Shown here: one piece after another, positions 57,901 through 64,000 of the stretch
Layout of the letters: the number at the start of each line of letters is the position of its first letter
Position numbering within the stretch: position 1 is the first letter of the stretch
Source: Methyloligellaceae bacterium
GTDB taxonomy: Bacteria > Pseudomonadota > Alphaproteobacteria > Rhizobiales > CBDHHC01
Assembly: GCA_050633205.1 (NCBI GenBank)
Contig: JBOEGA010000026.1
Location: forward strand, 1,412 to 65,411
Reading direction: 5' to 3'
DNA length: 64,000 nucleotides
Program-made: the position numbers and the translations under genes
Notes under the pieces: model-generated
What the model was told of the DNA's origin: nothing
Seen by the model: the letters and a program-made list of their open reading frames with translations, nothing else
Databases searched by the model: none

Positions 57901-58260
57901 TCAGGTTCCTATGGATTTACGAGGAAGGCCGGAGACACTTTTGAGAGCAATTCTAAAAGTTTGTTTTGCTTCTTTAAATAAGCCAGCTTTCATGGCAATT
58001 ACACTTTTTAATAACAGTTCTTTTGTTGATAATCTGGTTTTATTGTTTTCCTCAAAGAACCTGAAAAATAATTCACTTTGAGCAGAGTTTCCGAGCCTGT
58101 GATATACATTAGCCAGCAGATAACATGTGCGGGGAATATCTGGTGCTACATGGTATGAGAGGTGTAACAAAGGCAGTGCAGCAGATGGGCGGCCGCAACT
58201 GATCTGCATAACTGCCAAACTATTCAAAAGCTGTATCTGTTTTGGTGATAGCTTCGCCAT
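57901..58260 (-). CDS. small TPR-like helical protein, candidate type III secretion chaperone
   Basis: It is 119 aa and all-helical, with TPR-like A/L/Y spacing (CYLLANVYHRLGNSAQSELFFRF, LLLKSVIAMKAGLFKEAKQTF). It is the size of the YscG/YscY/class-II chaperones. It is translationally coupled (2-nt gap) to orf134 in the sctD operon. Confidence 0.4.
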   Translation of the reverse strand: MAKLSPKQIQLLNSLAVMQISCGRPSAALPLLHLSYHVAPDIPRTCYLLANVYHRLGNSAQSELFFRFFEENNKTRLSTKELLLKSVIAMKAGLFKEAKQTFRIALKSVSGLPRKSIGT

Positions 58261-58262
58261 TC

Positions 58263-58667
58263 TTAGTCACCAGATGCTGTGGTTTGTTTGAGGTATAAAT
58301 ACTCTCTTAATCTTACATGATCTTCCAACGCCCTGAGGCCCTGTTTTACTTCAAGGGATGAATCATGTTTTGCAAGGGTTTCCACGTCAGAATAAAGTTG
58401 GCTGATCTCAAATGTTGTCTGGTCTTTCATGACAGATTTAAGAGCTGTGATATCCTCGCTATCCATTTCCAGAACAGAAACATGCTCGACCTTTTTCTGA
58501 GGAATATTTTGAGCAATGACTTTCTTACTTGTTGCCGGAGAGGATTTAGAGCCTGATGATTTATCTTTTCTTTTTTGTCTTACCGCTTCAACAGTCTGTG
58601 GCAGGGCAACTTCGTCGTGTTTTATTATAGCAGGAATTGTTTGTTTTTGATTGATTTTTTGTGACAT
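58263..58667 (-). CDS. hypothetical 134-aa protein (basic, Ser/Lys-rich N-terminus and helical C-terminus), T3SS-associated by position
   Basis: The ORF has GGAAG about 9 nt upstream of its ATG and sits between sctD and the TPR gene. I recognise no motif. Confidence 0.45.
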   Translation of the reverse strand: MSQKINQKQTIPAIIKHDEVALPQTVEAVRQKRKDKSSGSKSSPATSKKVIAQNIPQKKVEHVSVLEMDSEDITALKSVMKDQTTFEISQLYSDVETLAKHDSSLEVKQGLRALEDHVRLREYLYLKQTTASGD

Positions 58668-58682
58668 TACTTCGCTTCCCGG

Positions 58683-59684
58683 TTATTTAAACTGGACTAA
58701 AATCTTCTGATTGGCTTTCGAAACAAGTATTCCTCTGTCATTTATAGATTCTATTTTCCAATCTTTATCAATTGTTTCACCAACAAATGCCCTGCGGTTA
58801 TTCCCAAGAAGTGCATATTTTTGATCACCCAAATTTACTAATTTTATTTCCGGTAGATTGTTTTGATCGGATAATTCGATAACCTGATTAAATAGTGGAG
58901 GGGGGCTTTCCTGAGTGTCATACCATTGTAAAATCTTCCTCCATTTATGACTATGTGTCTGCTGGAGTTCTCCTGTGACTTTCAAGGTATTGTTTGTATC
59001 CGCTTTAATGCTGATATATGGGGTGAGACCGACTTCACGTACTTTATTGCGGAGGTCTAAAAGAAAAGTCTTCTTATCACTGTCTTGTTTTTCAGGTTTT
59101 GTTGCTATCGCAGTATTCGAGGTTACTTCATCGGTATCAGAGGAAAAAAGAATAATAGCTAACCCGATGAAGATTAGAGCAATTGCGGAGAGAAGTGCAA
59201 GCATATTTTTTGATAACGATAATGAAGAGAGTGTTTCACCATCTAATTCAGGCAGCTTCGTGTCGTTTTCTGCTTTATTATTGTTGTAAACGTAGCCTCT
59301 GGCATCCATAATTTTCAGGCTTGTATTTGACAGGGTAATATCAATATCACTCTGCCTGGTAATCGTATTATTTATCTGGAGAGTTGTACCGGATACCTGT
59401 ACATTTTCCTGAAGTGCATGAACTGTTATGCTTACTCCAAGAAGACTTCGCGTTATATTTATGGCTATATGCTCATCAAATATATCATCGTCCAGAAGGA
59501 TAACATCTGCTTGTGAACCAGAACCAATTGTAAAACCCGTCAACTCAATAAAACGCTCAGATCCTGCCATTAATCCTGTTTCAAACTTCAGGATCAAACC
59601 TTCGCGGGTCTCTGTTAGGTAAGGTATCTCAGGTATCCTGGAGTTTTCCTGGGTAGTGTTGCTCAAAGTCCGGACTTTCTGCAA
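58683..59684 (-). CDS. sctD: SctD-like inner-membrane ring protein (FHA domain, single TM, periplasmic domain)
   Basis: The N-terminal FHA-like fold reads LILKFETGLMAGSERFIELTGFTIGSGSQADVILLDDDIFDEHIAINI, comparable to the YscD N-terminus. A single TM (LALLSAIALIFIGLAIILF) and a ~150-aa periplasmic part follow. The start codon is uncertain (TTG at 59684). Confidence 0.65.
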   Translation of the reverse strand: MQKVRTLSNTTQENSRIPEIPYLTETREGLILKFETGLMAGSERFIELTGFTIGSGSQADVILLDDDIFDEHIAINITRSLLGVSITVHALQENVQVSGTTLQINNTITRQSDIDITLSNTSLKIMDARGYVYNNNKAENDTKLPELDGETLSSLSLSKNMLALLSAIALIFIGLAIILFSSDTDEVTSNTAIATKPEKQDSDKKTFLLDLRNKVREVGLTPYISIKADTNNTLKVTGELQQTHSHKWRKILQWYDTQESPPPLFNQVIELSDQNNLPEIKLVNLGDQKYALLGNNRRAFVGETIDKDWKIESINDRGILVSKANQKILVQFK

Positions 59685-61955: not shown

Positions 61956-62604
61956 AAGTCAGGACAAGCCCCTGAACGAGTTTAGTCCAACCGCCGATCA
62001 TAATAAATAATAACAGTTTAAAGGGAACACCAATCAGACTGGGTGGAACCATCATCATACCCATTGCCATTAGTATGGCCGTTAGAATAATATCAACAGC
62101 GACGAATGGCAGGTAGAGAAGGAAACCTATTTCAAAGGCCCTTGTCAGCTCAGTTATCATAAAAGAAGGAATGAGTATGATCAGGTCATTTTTATCAGCT
62201 TTTAAAGAAGAACCCTTCCAAACCTCTTTTGTGACTGATTGAAAATATTCCTTGTGACCTTCGTCTGTATTTTTTTTAAGAAAAGTTTTAATTGGTTCAC
62301 TACCCTCAGTCAGTAATTCCACCCATGCATTCAGCGTCTTAGGGGGAGCTGTTTTTGTTATTGCGATATCATATACTTCAGTAAAAACGGGTAGTGAGAT
62401 ATATATTGCCAGTACCAACGCAAAGGTATGCAGGATTGTATTCCCCGGAGCCTGTTGCATTCCAAGAGCGTTACGAATTACAAAAAATACGATCGAGAGT
62501 TTTGTAAAGGCTGTCGTGGTCAGTACGGTTATTACAACAAGACCAGAAAGAAAGCCGATAATAACCAGGGATAAGTTATCAGCCATTTGTGAAGACCTGT
62601 TCAA
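61945..62604 (-). CDS. sctR: SctR (YscR/HrcR/FliP family) export-apparatus protein
   Basis: The product has IRNALGMQQAPGN, IPSFMITELTRAFEIGFLLYLPF and AMGMMMVPP. These are hallmark FliP/SctR motifs. Confidence 0.9.
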   Translation of the reverse strand: MNRSSQMADNLSLVIIGFLSGLVVITVLTTTAFTKLSIVFFVIRNALGMQQAPGNTILHTFALVLAIYISLPVFTEVYDIAITKTAPPKTLNAWVELLTEGSEPIKTFLKKNTDEGHKEYFQSVTKEVWKGSSLKADKNDLIILIPSFMITELTRAFEIGFLLYLPFVAVDIILTAILMAMGMMMVPPSLIGVPFKLLLFIMIGGWTKLVQGLVLTYGG

Positions 62605-63667
62605 TTTTGACTGCTATAGAGCCATCAACTTTTACTAATGTTCCATAGCCAATTTCCTTGCCGTTAATCACGATTTGAACATCATCTGTATGGTCATCAG
62701 GAAATGTAATTACGCTACCTTCTTTTATTTCCCTTAGCTGTTCTATTGAAATTGTTTTTTTCCCAACTTCAAATGACACTGTAAGGGGGATATGGTCCAG
62801 TGAAGCATTATTGTTATTTTCAGTCATTGTGTTTTCTCCAGACAAATAGCAGGTATTATGATTGCTGCCTTCGCTTAACAAAGGTTGTTTGATTACCAGT
62901 GAACCTCCATCAGGTGTAATGTTTGCAAGCCAAAAGGGGTGGTTTCCAATAGCAATTTCACGCGTTTTTTCCTGTTGTTTACCTGGCCCCAGAATAATCA
63001 TATCACCTGCGTTCAGGCCCCTTATGGTTTCAAGGTCCATTGTGATAGATTTGCAGTTTAAACGGAGCTTGAGAGGGATTAGTGGCTCCAAATTATTATT
63101 AGTCTGGCTCTCTGATAATGTGAGGCTATCCAGAACAGTTTTCCAGGTTGCATAATCTAATTCAGGAACTGTGATTTGAAATGGCGCTATGTTACCTGAC
63201 TTTGGAATTTCTATTTCACCTGATAGCTGTATTATGTTTTCAGCGGGTATTTGCAGCTTGCCATATTCAAGAGAAAATGAATTGTCGTACTTTTCTTCAA
63301 GTTCAGAAAAGAATGGAGAGAAAATCAGTTCAAGCAGAAGTGAGATATCGAGATCATTAGAGCTATCAAAGTCGATTTCTTCATCAAAAGAGTTCAGTAT
63401 TTCGCGAACAAAGCTTTCACTAATGGATATCCATAGTTTTGCTTTTCCCAGCGAAAGACAGAGGCAATTTTTTTCATCTTCTGGGTTGAAATTCTGCCTA
63501 TGGTAGTTTGCAGAAATTCTGATTTTCAGATTGTGTGCAGAAAACTGTAACGTTTTTTTACTTGCATACCAGTATCTGCTTATTTTTGCCTGGAGAGCAG
63601 ATATATCAGCAATGTCATAAAGCAAACAGGTTTCTTCAGTAGTGTGTGTATTATTTTTATTGAGCAT
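62579..63667 (-). CDS. sctQ: SctQ (YscQ/HrcQ, FliM/FliN-like) cytoplasmic sorting-platform protein
   Basis: The C-terminal SpoA/FliN-type domain reads LDHIPLTVSFEVGKKTISIEQLREIKEGSVITFPDDHTDDVQIVINGKEIGYGTLVKVDGSIAVKIEQVF. The gene lies directly upstream of sctRSTU. Confidence 0.8.
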   Translation of the reverse strand: MLNKNNTHTTEETCLLYDIADISALQAKISRYWYASKKTLQFSAHNLKIRISANYHRQNFNPEDEKNCLCLSLGKAKLWISISESFVREILNSFDEEIDFDSSNDLDISLLLELIFSPFFSELEEKYDNSFSLEYGKLQIPAENIIQLSGEIEIPKSGNIAPFQITVPELDYATWKTVLDSLTLSESQTNNNLEPLIPLKLRLNCKSITMDLETIRGLNAGDMIILGPGKQQEKTREIAIGNHPFWLANITPDGGSLVIKQPLLSEGSNHNTCYLSGENTMTENNNNASLDHIPLTVSFEVGKKTISIEQLREIKEGSVITFPDDHTDDVQIVINGKEIGYGTLVKVDGSIAVKIEQVFTNG

Positions 63668-63673
63668 AATTAT

Positions 63674-64000
63674 ACTATTTTTTATTATTCAGTCGACTGT
63701 CGACGCTGTCAGCTTCCTGATTACTAGCTTCAACCACAGCAAGAGCCTGGCTCAGACGTTGGTATAGAATTTCAATTTTCTGTTGCTTTTTTTCGGCTTC
63801 GCGAAATGCCTGTTTATCTTTATGCAAGATGGACGAGGTTCGTTGAATATCTGTTTCAATGTTTTCTATTGATTGCCGTGCATCATCAATATCCTGATAA
63901 GCCTGAGATACTTTCGCTCTTAAGCCGCTTAGGCGTGATGAATAATTTTGTGTGTTTTTATCCTCTTTTCCCTTAAAATGGTTGTCGATGATATTTCGCG
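63674..64000 (-). CDS. coiled-coil protein, C-terminal 108 aa only (runs off the window); SctO (YscO/FliJ-like stalk) candidate
   Basis: The reverse strand translates to ...RLSGLRAKVSQAYQDIDDARQSIENIETDIQRTSSILHKDKQAFREAEKKQQKIEILYQRLSQALAVVEASNQEADSVDSRLNNKK*, stop at 63674-63676. It has heptad-like charged coiled-coil character. It lies 6 nt upstream of sctQ. The printed sequence appears to end at 63999, and the frame is consistent with that. Confidence 0.45.

What the first reader, a model, noticed from the sequence alone, without database searches (positions are those of the whole stretch)
57901..64000. Compact, AT-rich non-flagellar T3SS block with sctU followed directly by an sctD-orf134-TPR operon
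The genes sctO-like, Q, R, S, T and U are translationally coupled, with overlaps or gaps of 8 nt or less.

A 114-bp spacer follows. It carries a promoter-like TTGATA-N18-TATATT and an ACGT-repeat palindrome.

After the spacer comes a second coupled unit: an FHA-domain SctD, a 134-aa unknown protein and a 119-aa TPR protein.

The FHA-SctD marks this as an injectisome type rather than a flagellar system.

The region looks visibly more AT-rich than the xyl or cox operons. It is flanked by gene decay (putA and the TRAP gene).

Injectisomes in free-living, marine-type alphaproteobacteria-like genomes are poorly characterised. This one also has the SctU and SctP anomalies described above.
Basis: partly seen in the sequence, partly recalled or inferred. 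Interest (0 to 1): 0.6.

Follow-up and report, generated by a model that had tools for sequence, protein, structure and literature searches.

The report
Rhizobial-type injectisome genes, marine alphaproteobacterium
This stretch is the intact tail end of a type III "injection needle" gene cluster of the family known from legume-nodulating rhizobia, here in an uncultured marine-type alphaproteobacterium; its apparent oddities (no ruler protein, no self-cleavage motif in SctU) are traits of that whole family, so the finding is a fairly ordinary new member.

Summary
On the minus strand lie sctO (partial), sctQ, R, S, T and U, coupled by 1-8 nt gaps or overlaps. A 114-nt spacer follows, then sctD (FHA type), orf134 and a 119-aa TPR gene, closed by a strong terminator hairpin.

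By SctU phylogeny, best matches for six of seven proteins, gene order and hallmark traits, this is a rhizobial-type (Rhc) injectisome, in a deep uncharacterised alphaproteobacterial branch.

The "SctP/SctU anomalies" are family traits. The literature reports no sctP in any Rhc subgroup. Rhc-I and Rhc-II SctU lack NPTH, Rhc-III SctU is truncated before it, and 149 related representatives lack it.

The TPR protein is an SctY homologue. orf134 sits where SctX sits, and the same trio precedes sctV in a distant relative and in Rhc-II.

The spacer's promoter-like hexamers are no better than chance. Its ACGT palindrome is a conserved TACGTA box found upstream of T3SS operons in five related clusters, probably an operator.

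GC is 39.1% against 43.5%, but GC3 does not differ.

All T3SS genes in the window are intact, and SctN is intact on the same contig. SctV and the secretin could not be confirmed.

The parts
63675..64000 (-). 3' part of an SctO-like (stalk) gene; the ORF runs off the window end
   Evidence: Open frame of 108 codons, coiled-coil-like. It is 34% identical to the 163-aa ORF between sctN and sctQ in L017. The orthologue in L030 has a weak YscO-like Pfam hit.
62579..63667 (-). sctQ (cytoplasmic ring / sorting platform), 362 aa
   Evidence: TIGR02551 SpaO_YscQ E 1.6e-25; PF01052 FliMN_C E 1e-20. Colinear with 357-366-aa orthologues.
61945..62586 (-). sctR (export apparatus), 213 aa from the ATG that overlaps the sctQ stop by 8 nt
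   Evidence: NF009438, 233.6 bits (cutoff 179); TIGR01102, 223.5 bits (cutoff 208.6). 80% identical to L017 SctR.
61674..61943 (-). sctS, 89 aa from the ATG preceded by GGAGGG
   Evidence: TIGR01403 E 2.7e-13; junction sequence.
60848..61666 (-). sctT, 272 aa from the ATG 7 nt after the sctS stop
   Evidence: TIGR01401 E 1.2e-35. Orthologues in L017, L020 and L021 are 272 aa.
59799..60851 (-). sctU, 350 aa, without the NPTH autocleavage motif (GKAS plus a one-residue deletion at residues ~270-273)
   Evidence: PF01312 E 1e-61. Alignments. In the AF2 model the C-domain (pLDDT ~78-90) has strand 266-269, a tight turn, then strand 273-278.
59685..59798 (.). 114-nt sctU-sctD spacer
   Evidence: No Rfam match and no RNA structure, z = +0.65.
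59740..59764 (-). Conserved TACGTA box (TGTACGTACGTACTCACCACTGATG), a candidate operator
   Evidence: Invariant TACGTAnGT in all 5 orthologous spacers. In five related loci, 19 of 27 TACGTA sites are intergenic although only 12% of the sequence is intergenic, p = 4e-12; control hexamers run 0-26%.
59694..59723 (-). TTGATA-N18-TATATT, a sigma-70-like hexamer pair downstream of the box
   Evidence: 10/12 match. The density of such matches in the region is not above shuffles, so this alone is weak.
58683..59684 (-). sctD, Y4yQ-type short inner-ring protein with an FHA-like N-domain, one TM segment and a ~150-aa periplasmic part. The start is uncertain: TTG gives 333 aa, NCBI aa.
   Evidence: PF21934 E 1.7e-6, PF23893 Y4YQ_C E 1.9e-5, PF16697 E 2.8e-4, TIGR02500 E 3e-12. 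Colinear alignment with the Rhc-I and Rhc-II SctD. NCBI length.
58263..58667 (-). orf134: small protein in the SctX position, with a Ser/Lys-rich N-half and a conserved helical C-half
   Evidence: Conserved in 6 clusters. It always lies between sctD and the SctY-like gene, and in L022 the trio directly precedes sctV. No sequence similarity to YscX or to the Ensifer 124-aa ORF.
57901..58260 (-). TPR119: SctY-type TPR chaperone homologue
   Evidence: NCBIfam SctY E 4.6e-7 over the full length, and the best family for 6/6 orthologues, best E 9e-12. hhalign 95% / E 2e-8 to the Ensifer Rhc-II ORF abutting sctV. hhalign E 1e-3 to YscY, none to YscG. Six-helix AF2 model; SctY chains 8arc_A and 7qij are among the fold hits.
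57847..57878 (-). Intrinsic terminator-like hairpin (13-bp stem plus T-run) 23 nt after the TPR119 stop
   Evidence: sequence.
54871..54900 (+). Tentative: three TACGTA sites 400-430 nt upstream of the LamG-domain 841-aa gene (55302-57827), possibly the same regulon
   Evidence: The distance to the gene is long and no orthologous support was found.

Best explanation
The block is the downstream end of a rhizobial-type (Rhc-family) injectisome gene cluster in a Methyloligellaceae MAG.

**First unit.** sctO-Q-R-S-T-U is the translationally coupled tail of the long central operon. In relatives that operon reads sctJ-K-L-N-O-Q-R-S-T-U. It encodes the stalk, the sorting-platform ring and the inner-membrane export gate.

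**Second unit.** After a 114-nt spacer comes a unit with its own upstream TACGTA-box operator and its own terminator. It encodes:
- the inner-membrane ring protein SctD (short Y4yQ type with an FHA-like cytoplasmic domain);
- a small, probably secreted protein in the SctX position (orf134);
- its TPR chaperone, an SctY homologue (TPR119).

**Inferred mechanism.** By analogy with YscX/YscY/YscV, the orf134:TPR119 pair is inferred to dock on the SctV export gate and license early export.

**Family traits.** As in all Rhc systems examined here, there is no SctP ruler gene between sctO and sctQ. SctU also has a short Gly/Asp-rich turn instead of NPTH. SctU therefore cannot autocleave by the canonical Asn-cyclisation route, and substrate switching must work differently.

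**Shown:** gene identities, order, coupling, family placement, SctY homology, conservation of the box.

**Inferred:** SctX-like role of orf134, operator function of the box, absence of SctU cleavage in vivo, activity of the system.
For: **Family models.** Pfam and NCBIfam name Q, R, S, T, U and D as Sct rather than flagellar proteins.

**Source.** SctU is 100% identical to MGH1350142 of a Methyloligellaceae MAG on a 79.5-kb contig.

**Synteny.** Six related clusters share the order J-K-L-N-O-Q-R-S-T-U. Four of them (L017, L018, L020, L021) also have D-X-Y directly after sctU. In L022 D-X-Y-sctV form one unit. L030 does not reach beyond sctU.

**Closest known family.**
- The best annotated relatives of SctU are rhizobial: E 1e-43 to 1e-45, against 1e-27 to 1e-36 for Ysc.
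- The best reference is Rhc for Q, R, S, T, U and D.
- In the NJ tree the window sits inside a 149-member NPTH-less clade with Rhc-I/II/III. That clade excludes Ysc, Hrp1, Hrp2, Inv-Mxi-Spa and flagellar FlhB; bootstrap 83%.

**Rhc hallmarks from the literature.**
- No sctP between O and Q.
- Y4yQ-type FHA SctD.
- Two small ORFs after sctD, the second YscY-like.

**NPTH.** It is absent in Rhc-I and Rhc-II, Rhc-III is truncated before it, and the loop consensus is G-G/D-(deletion)-D/G. AF2 keeps the SctU C-domain fold with a tight turn at that site.

**SctY homology.**

**TACGTA box.**

**Operon end.** Terminator after TPR119.

**Integrity.** All ORFs are full-length against their orthologues. 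SctN is intact on the same contig.
Against: - Identity to Rhc-I/II/III is low: SctU 28-30%, SctR 38-49%. SctN is marginally closer to YscN (50.7%) than to Rhc-II (49.6%).
- Subclade relations are unresolved: 13% bootstrap for the 13-member clade.
- orf134 shows no detectable similarity to YscX, to any PDB chain or to the Rhc-II 124-aa ORF. Its SctX role rests on position and on its partner.
- TPR119 scores below the NCBIfam SctY cutoff (30 against 70 bits). Generic TPR proteins match its fold equally well.
- sctV is not next to D-X-Y here, and no SctV from this contig appeared among the top 120 hits.
- No secretin, rhcC1 or regulator gene lies in the 64-kb window.
- There is no terminator between sctU and sctD, so read-through from the upstream operon is possible.
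Confidence: 0.8

Rival explanations
1. It is a relic: a decaying T3SS cluster in a genome undergoing gene loss, no longer assembling a needle.
For: - putA next door has an in-frame stop.
- A 1.08-kb ORF-free gap holds a faint DctP remnant.
- No SctV from the 79.5-kb contig appeared among the top 120 SctV hits, although SctN, U, Q and D of this MAG are all in the same database.
- The secretin/rhcC1/regulator module that follows D-X-Y in L017 and L021 is missing at that place here.
Against: - All nine T3SS reading frames in the window are uninterrupted and match orthologue lengths within a few residues.
- Protein accessions run consecutively from TPR119 to SctU, and SctQ's number leaves exactly room for T, S and R, which suggests no pseudogene in between.
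- SctN (449 aa) is intact.
- The coupling junctions, the Shine-Dalgarno site, the box and the terminator are all preserved.
- SctV could simply be partial at a contig end, or lie on another contig.
Confidence: 0.15
2. It represents a separate, new injectisome family rather than a member of the Rhc family.
For: - Only ~29% SctU identity to any named Rhc subgroup, and SctN is equidistant from Ysc.
- Different regulation: a TACGTA box and a Response_reg+GerE regulator in relatives, with no tts box.
- D-X-Y has been moved behind sctU.
Against: - It shares derived traits with Rhc: no SctP, an NPTH-less SctU with the same one-residue deletion, Y4yQ_C-type SctD, and the SctY-like TPR.
- Relatives have a split secretin and a DUF4781 giant protein; the latter is also found next to the Ensifer Rhc-II cluster.
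- The tree nests it among Rhc-I/II/III.
- Rhc-II and Rhc-III also lack tts boxes and TtsI.
Confidence: 0.1
3. orf134 and TPR119 are not an SctX/SctY pair. They are instead a needle or translocator subunit with its class II/III TPR chaperone (YscG- or LcrH-like).
For: - TPR chaperones of ~115-170 aa serve needle and translocator proteins.
- 2 of 6 orthologues also hit the LcrH_SycD model, E 7e-4.
- SycD is among the fold matches.
- orf134 has no similarity to YscX.
Against: - SctY is the top NCBIfam family for 6/6 orthologues.
- There is no alignment to YscG.
- Full-length homology to the ORF that abuts sctV in Rhc-II.
- In L022 the pair lies immediately before sctV, as yscX-yscY-yscV do.
- Relatives carry a separate 181-190-aa TPR protein next to the secretin that better fits a class II chaperone.
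- orf134, at 134 aa with a long disordered N-half, does not look like a needle subunit.
Confidence: 0.2
4. The spacer has no regulatory role: sctD-orf134-TPR119 are simply transcribed by read-through from sctU, and the ACGT palindrome serves some other purpose.
For: - No terminator lies between sctU and sctD.
- The hexamer pair is not better than chance.
- The sctD start has no clear Shine-Dalgarno site and uses TTG.
Against: - The box is the only conserved element in spacers of 122-255 nt across clusters whose SctU is only 41-52% identical.
- The same hexamer marks the upstream regions of the sctJ-side and sctV-side operons, the secretin, the regulator and orphan genes in relatives, p = 4e-12 for intergenic enrichment.
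- There is no RNA structure in the spacer.
Confidence: 0.25

Closest known systems
Rhc-I injectisome of Sinorhizobium fredii NGR234/HH103 and Bradyrhizobium (pNGR234a type; here S. fredii pSF25509a, locus L024)
   Same: - Central operon order ...rhcN-(O)-rhcQ-R-S-T-U.
- No sctP.
- SctU without NPTH (RGTA in its place).
- Y4yQ-type SctD downstream of rhcU on the same strand.
- A TPR protein in the sctD-sctV segment.

Best reference match for SctR (49%), SctS and SctT.
   Different: - In Rhc-I, effector genes (nopP, nopC) separate rhcU from y4yQ, and y4yQ is followed by rhcV then the 182-aa TPR protein Y4yS.
- Here D-X-Y follow sctU directly and sctV is elsewhere.
- Rhc-I is driven by TtsI and tts boxes; no tts box was found here and a TACGTA box is present instead.
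- Identity is only 28-49%.
Rhc-II (T3SS-II of pNGR234b, P. syringae T3SS-2; here Ensifer adhaerens pD, locus L019)
   Same: - FHA-SctD, then a ~124-aa ORF, then a ~111-aa SctY-like TPR, as one module.
- NPTH-less SctU (GEER); best SctU and SctD match (E 7.5e-51 and 1e-13).
- An SctO gene is present.
- The DUF4781 giant protein also lies next to related clusters.
- No TtsI or tts box.

   Different: - In Rhc-II the module is followed by sctV-secretin-...-sctU, and sctU is detached from sctT.
- Here sctU stays fused to the R-S-T operon and the module has moved behind it without sctV.
- The X-position ORFs show no detectable similarity.
Ysc-family SctX/SctY/SctV (YscX-YscY-YscV of Yersinia; PDB 7QIJ, 8ARC)
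   Same: - A ~115-120-aa three-TPR chaperone preceded by a ~120-135-aa protein. In the distant relative L022 this pair lies directly upstream of sctV.
- TPR119 aligns over its full length with YscY and with SctY models.
   Different: - orf134 has no sequence similarity to YscX.
- TPR119 is below the SctY family cutoff.
- The pair is coupled to sctD, not to sycN or sctV.
- Gilzer et al. 2022 (PMC9163089) state that SctX/Y are confined to the Ysc family. Gazi et al. 2012 had already noted YscY-like proteins in Rhc systems.
Rhc-III (Rhizobium etli/phaseoli; locus L025)
   Same: J-K-L-N-Q-R-S-T-U operon, no sctP, and the SctU N-domain groups with this clade in the NJ tree.
   Different: - Rhc-III lacks sctO.
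- The literature reports no SctD, SctY-like protein or rhcC2 for it.
- Its SctU is truncated at 265 aa and lacks the whole C-terminal domain.

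Membership tests
Non-flagellar T3SS (injectisome) | Export-gate proteins score better with the Sct models than with the FliP/Q/R/FlhB models | tested here: met
   Sct model against flagellar model, in bits: SctR 233.6 vs FliP 174.6; SctT 123.3 vs FliR 61.2; SctU 221.7 vs FlhB 170.6; SctS 49.8 vs FliQ 45.4.
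Non-flagellar T3SS (injectisome) | Presence of an SctD inner-ring protein with an FHA-like cytoplasmic domain | tested here: met
   TIGR02500 E 3e-12; PF21934, PF16697 and PF23893 hits; alignment A5.
Rhc (rhizobial) injectisome family | No sctP/hrpP-like gene between sctO and sctQ (Gazi 2012) | tested here: met
   Only 7 nt separate the SctO-like stop from the sctQ start. The same holds in six relatives. Definition from the literature.
Rhc (rhizobial) injectisome family | Central operon order rhcJ-nolU-nolV-rhcN-(O)-rhcQ-R-S-T-U | tested here: met
   O-Q-R-S-T-U in the window. J-K-L-N upstream in relatives. SctN of this MAG is on the same contig. The part beyond 64000 was not seen directly.
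Rhc (rhizobial) injectisome family | Split secretin (rhcC1 N-terminal piece plus rhcC2) | tested here: inconclusive
   No secretin gene lies in the 64-kb window. Among relatives, L017 and L021 carry both a 215-aa protein and a separate 570-581-aa secretin. L018 and L022 show only the 212-215-aa Secretin_N protein.
Rhc (rhizobial) injectisome family | Y4yQ-type short SctD followed by small ORFs, the second a YscY-like TPR protein | tested here: met
   PF23893 Y4YQ_C, 24.8 bits, just under the 27-bit cutoff. Colinear with the S. fredii and Ensifer SctD. TPR119 against the Ensifer ORF: 95% probability.
Rhc (rhizobial) injectisome family | Core proteins group phylogenetically with Rhc-I/II/III | tested here: met
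   SctU NJ tree and bootstrap of 83%. Best reference match is Rhc for Q, R, S, T, U and D, but not for N. The method is distance-based on one protein; ML on a concatenate was not run.
Rhc (rhizobial) injectisome family | SctU lacks the NPTH autocleavage motif (a trait found here; not part of published definitions) | tested here: met
   Window GKAS; Rhc-I RGTA; Rhc-II GEER; Rhc-III truncated; 0 of 149 clade members carry NPTH.
Rhc-I subgroup | TtsI regulator and tts-box promoters | tested here: not met
   No tts-box core (recalled consensus GTCAGnTTnTCGnnAGC, up to 3 mismatches) lies in any T3SS intergenic region. Relatives carry a Response_reg+GerE regulator and TACGTA boxes instead.
SctY (YscY) chaperone family, NCBIfam NF052415 | Score above the curated equivalog cutoff (70 bits) | tested here: not met
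   30.3 bits, E 4.6e-7, full-length alignment 4-106 / 1-104. The best orthologue reaches E 9e-12. This makes it a homologue, not an equivalog by NCBI's threshold.
SctY (YscY) chaperone family, NCBIfam NF052415 | Three-TPR fold of ~110-120 aa | tested here: met
   AF2 model with six helices, pLDDT 74.7. Foldseek hit to 8arc_A SctY, TM 0.60-0.66.
SctY (YscY) chaperone family, NCBIfam NF052415 | Encoded directly after sctX and before sctV; binds SctX and SctV | tested here: inconclusive
   An upstream small-ORF partner is present. Adjacency to sctV is seen in L022 and in Ensifer Rhc-II but not in the window. Binding is not testable with these tools.
SctX (YscX) family | Sequence similarity to YscX/AscX | tested here: not met
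   hhalign probability 0.06%; no PDB profile hit. Only position, size and N-disordered / C-helical layout are alike.

The most novel reading that the evidence does not exclude
Rhc-type injectisomes as a whole, including this marine lineage and the proven-functional Rhc-I systems of rhizobia, may work with a non-cleaving SctU and no SctP ruler. Their early-to-late substrate switch would then follow a different logic from every textbook injectisome and from the flagellum. An SctX/SctY-like pair docking on SctV is a candidate stand-in.

This lineage may also be controlled by a previously undescribed TACGTA-box regulon under a NarL/GerE-type response regulator. That regulon would mark its effectors, with the adjacent LamG-domain 841-aa protein as a candidate.

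No paper in the searched library links NPTH loss with rhizobial SctU.
Probability: 0.35. Interest if true: 0.55.

Novelty: new member of a known kind. Interest (0 to 1): 0.3.

Why it matters
**For this window.** The finding is best annotated as a Rhc-family injectisome, not as an anomalous system. The label also assigns likely roles to two 'hypothetical proteins': an SctX-position protein and an SctY-type chaperone.

**More broadly.**
- The Rhc-like radiation is far larger than the plant-associated subgroups I-III. At least 149 clusters at 50% identity were found among the nearest relatives. It reaches marine alphaproteobacteria.
- The supposedly universal NPTH autocleavage site of SctU/FlhB is missing from this whole radiation, together with SctP. 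This deserves an experimental look in a tractable rhizobium.
- The conserved TACGTA box offers a simple handle for predicting the regulon, and hence the effectors, of these uncultured bacteria.

Tried and rejected
**Extending the contig failed.**
- Exact look-ups of SctQ, SctU (P0001) and SctN (P0295) found no indexed gene.
- The metagenome scan with SctQ found nothing.
- The genome-contig scan with SctU returned only Firmicutes flagellar FlhB loci, L001-L016, which are irrelevant.

**orf134 searches were all negative.**
- Against YscX.
- Against PDB by profile.
- Against the Ensifer 124-aa ORF.
- Pfam and NCBIfam.

**Other dead ends.**
TPR119 was therefore folded as a single sequence, which gave only moderate confidence.
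- TPR119 as a YscG-like needle chaperone: no alignment.
- The spacer as an RNA element: no Rfam hit, z = +0.65.
- The sigma-70-like hexamers as evidence of a promoter: not above shuffles.
- Low GC as evidence of horizontal transfer: GC3 is unchanged.
- LamG841 as an orthologue of the 876-aa gene that follows the cluster in L018: no similarity.
- tts box: none.
- Literature on NPTH loss in RhcU: none found in the library.

Full report
**1. What is in the sequence**

ORF listing and family scans show nine consecutive minus-strand genes.
- An SctO-like ORF that runs off the window at 64000 and ends at 63675.
- sctQ, 62579-63667.
- sctR, 61945-62586.
- sctS, 61674-61943.
- sctT, 60848-61666.
- sctU, 59799-60851.
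- sctD, 58683-59684.
- orf134, 58263-58667.
- A 119-aa TPR gene, 57901-58260.

The Sct models beat the flagellar models for R, S, T and U. SctD has YscD/Y4yQ domain hits. This is an injectisome, not a flagellar set.

Reading the junctions gives the following.
- O/Q: 7-nt gap.
- Q/R: 8-nt overlap.
- R/S: 1-nt gap behind a GGAGGG site.
- S/T: 7-nt gap.
- T/U: ATGA overlap.
- U/D: 114 nt.
- D/X: 15 nt.
- X/Y: 2 nt.

A 13-bp-stem terminator hairpin lies 23 nt after the TPR stop, at 57878-57847.

**2. Composition and flanks**

The block has 39.1% GC against 43.5% for the rest of the window. Only 1.4% of equal-sized windows elsewhere are as low. GC3 of the T3SS genes (0.33-0.39) lies inside the range of the other genes, 0.30-0.42. 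The AT-richness comes from codon positions 1 and 2, that is, from amino-acid composition. It is not evidence of recent import.

putA is broken by a single in-frame stop. The 1.08-kb gap before the LamG gene has no ORF and only a faint DctP trace.

Elsewhere the window holds the following.
- A two-partner-secretion CdiA-like toxin.
- Two IalB genes.
- A CO/xanthine-dehydrogenase-type operon.
- A xylose operon.

It holds no secretin and no T3SS regulator.

**3. Source and relatives**

SctU, SctQ, SctD, orf134, TPR119 and the LamG protein are exact matches to proteins of one 79,534-bp contig of a MAG labelled Methyloligellaceae bacterium. I could not retrieve the remaining 15.5 kb.

Homologues of SctU at 35-52% identity led to six related clusters: L017, L018, L020, L021, L022/L023 and L030. 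All share the order sctJ-K-L-N-O-Q-R-S-T-U. In L017, L018, L020 and L021, sctD, a ~130-aa ORF and a ~120-aa TPR gene follow sctU directly. L030 does not extend beyond sctU.

In the most distant relative (L022) the trio is instead followed directly by sctV.

L030 lies on a 4.2-Mb contig next to pckA-chvI-chvG-hprK-manX-ptsH-type genes. From my own knowledge this is a typically alphaproteobacterial arrangement.

An intact 449-aa SctN from the window's own contig exists (P0295). No SctV from that contig was among the top 120 SctV hits, so completeness remains open.

**4. Which family**

- tblastn of SctU against plasmids ranks rhizobial systems first, at E 1e-43 to 1e-45. Ysc systems score 1e-27 to 1e-36.
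- Against references cut from annotated plasmids, the best match is Rhc for SctQ, R, S, T, U and D. SctN is a tie with Ysc.
- An exhaustive search returned 150 representatives. In an NJ tree with references, the window sits inside a clade of 149 sequences. That clade contains Rhc-I (S. fredii), Rhc-II (Ensifer) and Rhc-III (R. phaseoli). It excludes Hrp2, Hrp1, Ysc, Inv-Mxi-Spa and FlhB.
- The split has 83% NJ bootstrap support on a 53-taxon subset. Finer relations are unresolved.

The published Rhc hallmarks fit (Gazi et al. 2012, PMC3574062; Tampakaki 2014, PMC3973906).
- No sctP between O and Q.
- The J...U operon order.
- A Y4yQ-type FHA SctD.
- Two small ORFs after sctD, the second YscY-like.
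- A split secretin. L017 and L021 carry a 215-aa protein plus a separate 570-581-aa secretin. L018 and L022 show only the 212-215-aa Secretin_N protein.

A DUF4781 giant protein accompanies both L017 and the Ensifer Rhc-II cluster.

**5. The 'anomalies'**

The window's SctU has GKAS and a one-residue deletion where NPTH should be. All ten close homologues also lack NPTH. So do Rhc-I RhcU (RGTA) and Rhc-II (GEER). Rhc-III SctU stops at 265 aa, before the site.

None of the 149 clade members carries NPTH. The loop consensus is a short Gly/Asp/Ser turn, with the deletion in 128 of 149.

An AF2 model keeps the SctU C-domain fold, with strand 266-269, a tight turn, then strand 273-278, at pLDDT ~78-90.

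The missing SctP and the NPTH-less SctU are therefore family traits. Rhc-I systems are experimentally functional, so these traits are not signs of decay. I found no paper in the library that links NPTH loss to rhizobial SctU.

**6. orf134 and TPR119**

Evidence that TPR119 is an SctY homologue:
- It hits the NCBIfam SctY model over its full length, E 4.6e-7, below the cutoff.
- SctY is the top family for all six orthologues, best E 9e-12.
- Its profile aligns with YscY (E 1e-3, 95 columns) and not with YscG.
- Its profile aligns with the 111-aa ORF that overlaps the sctV start in Ensifer Rhc-II at 95% probability, E 2e-8.
- The single-sequence AF2 model is a six-helix TPR. SctY chains 8ARC and 7QIJ are among many TPR fold hits.

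orf134 has a Ser/Lys-rich variable N-half and a conserved helical C-half. It shows no detectable similarity to YscX, to any PDB chain or to the Ensifer 124-aa ORF.

Its SctX-like role is inferred from three things: its position, its partner, and the X-Y-V adjacency in L022 and in Yersinia. The mechanism of YscX:YscY docking on YscV is taken from PMC9163089. That paper states SctX/Y are Ysc-specific; Gazi et al. had already pointed to YscY-like proteins in Rhc.

**7. The spacer**

The TTGATA-N18-TATATT pair exists, but the density of such matches in the region is not above shuffles. The spacer has no Rfam match and no RNA structure.

The ACGT palindrome, in contrast, is the one conserved element in all five orthologous sctU-sctD spacers, with consensus TACGTAnGTnnTnnnCAC.

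TACGTA also marks these sites in relatives:
- the divergent sctV/sctJ promoter regions;
- the secretin;
- the regulator;
- orphan genes.

Nineteen of 27 sites are intergenic although 12% of the sequence is intergenic, p = 4e-12. Control hexamers run 0-26%.

Relatives encode a Response_reg+GerE regulator beside the cluster. I infer that the box is its operator and that sctD-orf134-TPR119 has its own regulated promoter. Read-through from sctU is not excluded.

No tts box was found.

The window has further TACGTA sites 400-430 nt upstream of the LamG-domain gene. This is only a tentative link.

**8. Verdict**

The finding is real and correctly described. It is a new, intact-looking member of the known Rhc injectisome family, in a deep marine/uncultured alphaproteobacterial branch. 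It is not an anomalous system.

The modestly new points are three:
- the relocation of D-X-Y behind sctU;
- the TACGTA box;
- the family-wide NPTH loss, which is larger than this window.

Noticed in passing
Loci L024:11992-13029, L019:13992-15029, L025:11983-12780, and 149 representatives: The NPTH autocleavage motif of SctU is absent from the whole Rhc-like radiation, including experimentally functional Rhc-I. Rhc-III SctU is truncated at 265 aa and lacks the entire C-terminal domain. No paper in the searched library mentions this.
   Followed up: partly
window 59740-59764 (-); L017 2037, 2181, 11067, 18809; L020 1935, 2012, 11060; L021 1987, 2110, 11069, 16684; L018 3006, 11057, 13049, 20366, 20385; L022 2987, 3007: A conserved TACGTA-centred box lies upstream of the T3SS operons in this subclade. 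It often has a second AAGTA/AGTAC or CACTG element 5-18 nt away. It is probably the operator of the neighbouring Response_reg+GerE regulator, and it differs from the rhizobial tts box.
   Followed up: partly
window 54871-54900 and 55302-57827 (+): Three TACGTA sites lie in a 1.08-kb ORF-free gap upstream of an 841-aa protein with two LamG (Laminin_G_3) domains, next to the T3SS. The protein is a possible co-regulated secreted protein. It has no similarity to the 876-aa gene at the equivalent place in L018.
   Followed up: partly
window 50705-54220 (+): putA (proline dehydrogenase plus aldehyde dehydrogenase) is interrupted by one in-frame stop near 52322 (ERID*ARCQ). The divergent AsnC/Lrp-type regulator gene at 50131-50601 is intact.
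   Followed up: yes
window 1920-13182 (-): A two-partner secretion locus. It comprises a ShlB/FhaC-type transporter (11419-13182), a short TPS-domain ORF (10304-11398), an IalB protein (9666-10232), and a 2560-aa filamentous-haemagglutinin/CdiA-like protein with DUF637 and a pretoxin-HINT domain (1920-9602).
   Followed up: no
window 29594-38998 (+): A 3134-aa ORF with no Pfam hit at E <= 1e-5. It lies in a region of unusually strong GC skew (+0.29 to +0.36) and higher GC (0.47-0.50). A second IalB gene lies just upstream at 28590-29183 (-).
   Followed up: no
L017 and L020 (both assembly GCA_041156685.1): One assembly carries two paralogous clusters of this subclade with the same architecture. 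The SctU proteins are P0002 and P0007, about 50% identical to the window's. This may be two organisms in one bin or a duplicated system.
   Followed up: no
L017 19221-21050; L019 20259-23183: A giant DUF4781 protein lies beside both a marine-subclade cluster and the Ensifer Rhc-II cluster. It is a candidate conserved effector or accessory protein of Rhc-like systems.
   Followed up: no
beyond window position 64000 (the contig is 79,534 bp): SctN of this MAG (P0295, 449 aa) is on the same contig. No SctV from that contig appeared among the 120 best SctV homologues. The secretin/rhcC1/regulator module found after D-X-Y in L017 and L021 is not at that position here.
   Followed up: partly
window 58683-59684 (-): The sctD start is ambiguous. 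The longest ORF starts at a TTG without a Shine-Dalgarno site (333 aa), while NCBI annotates 304 aa. A short out-of-frame ATG ORF overlaps the 5' end. Orthologues are 322-347 aa.
   Followed up: partly
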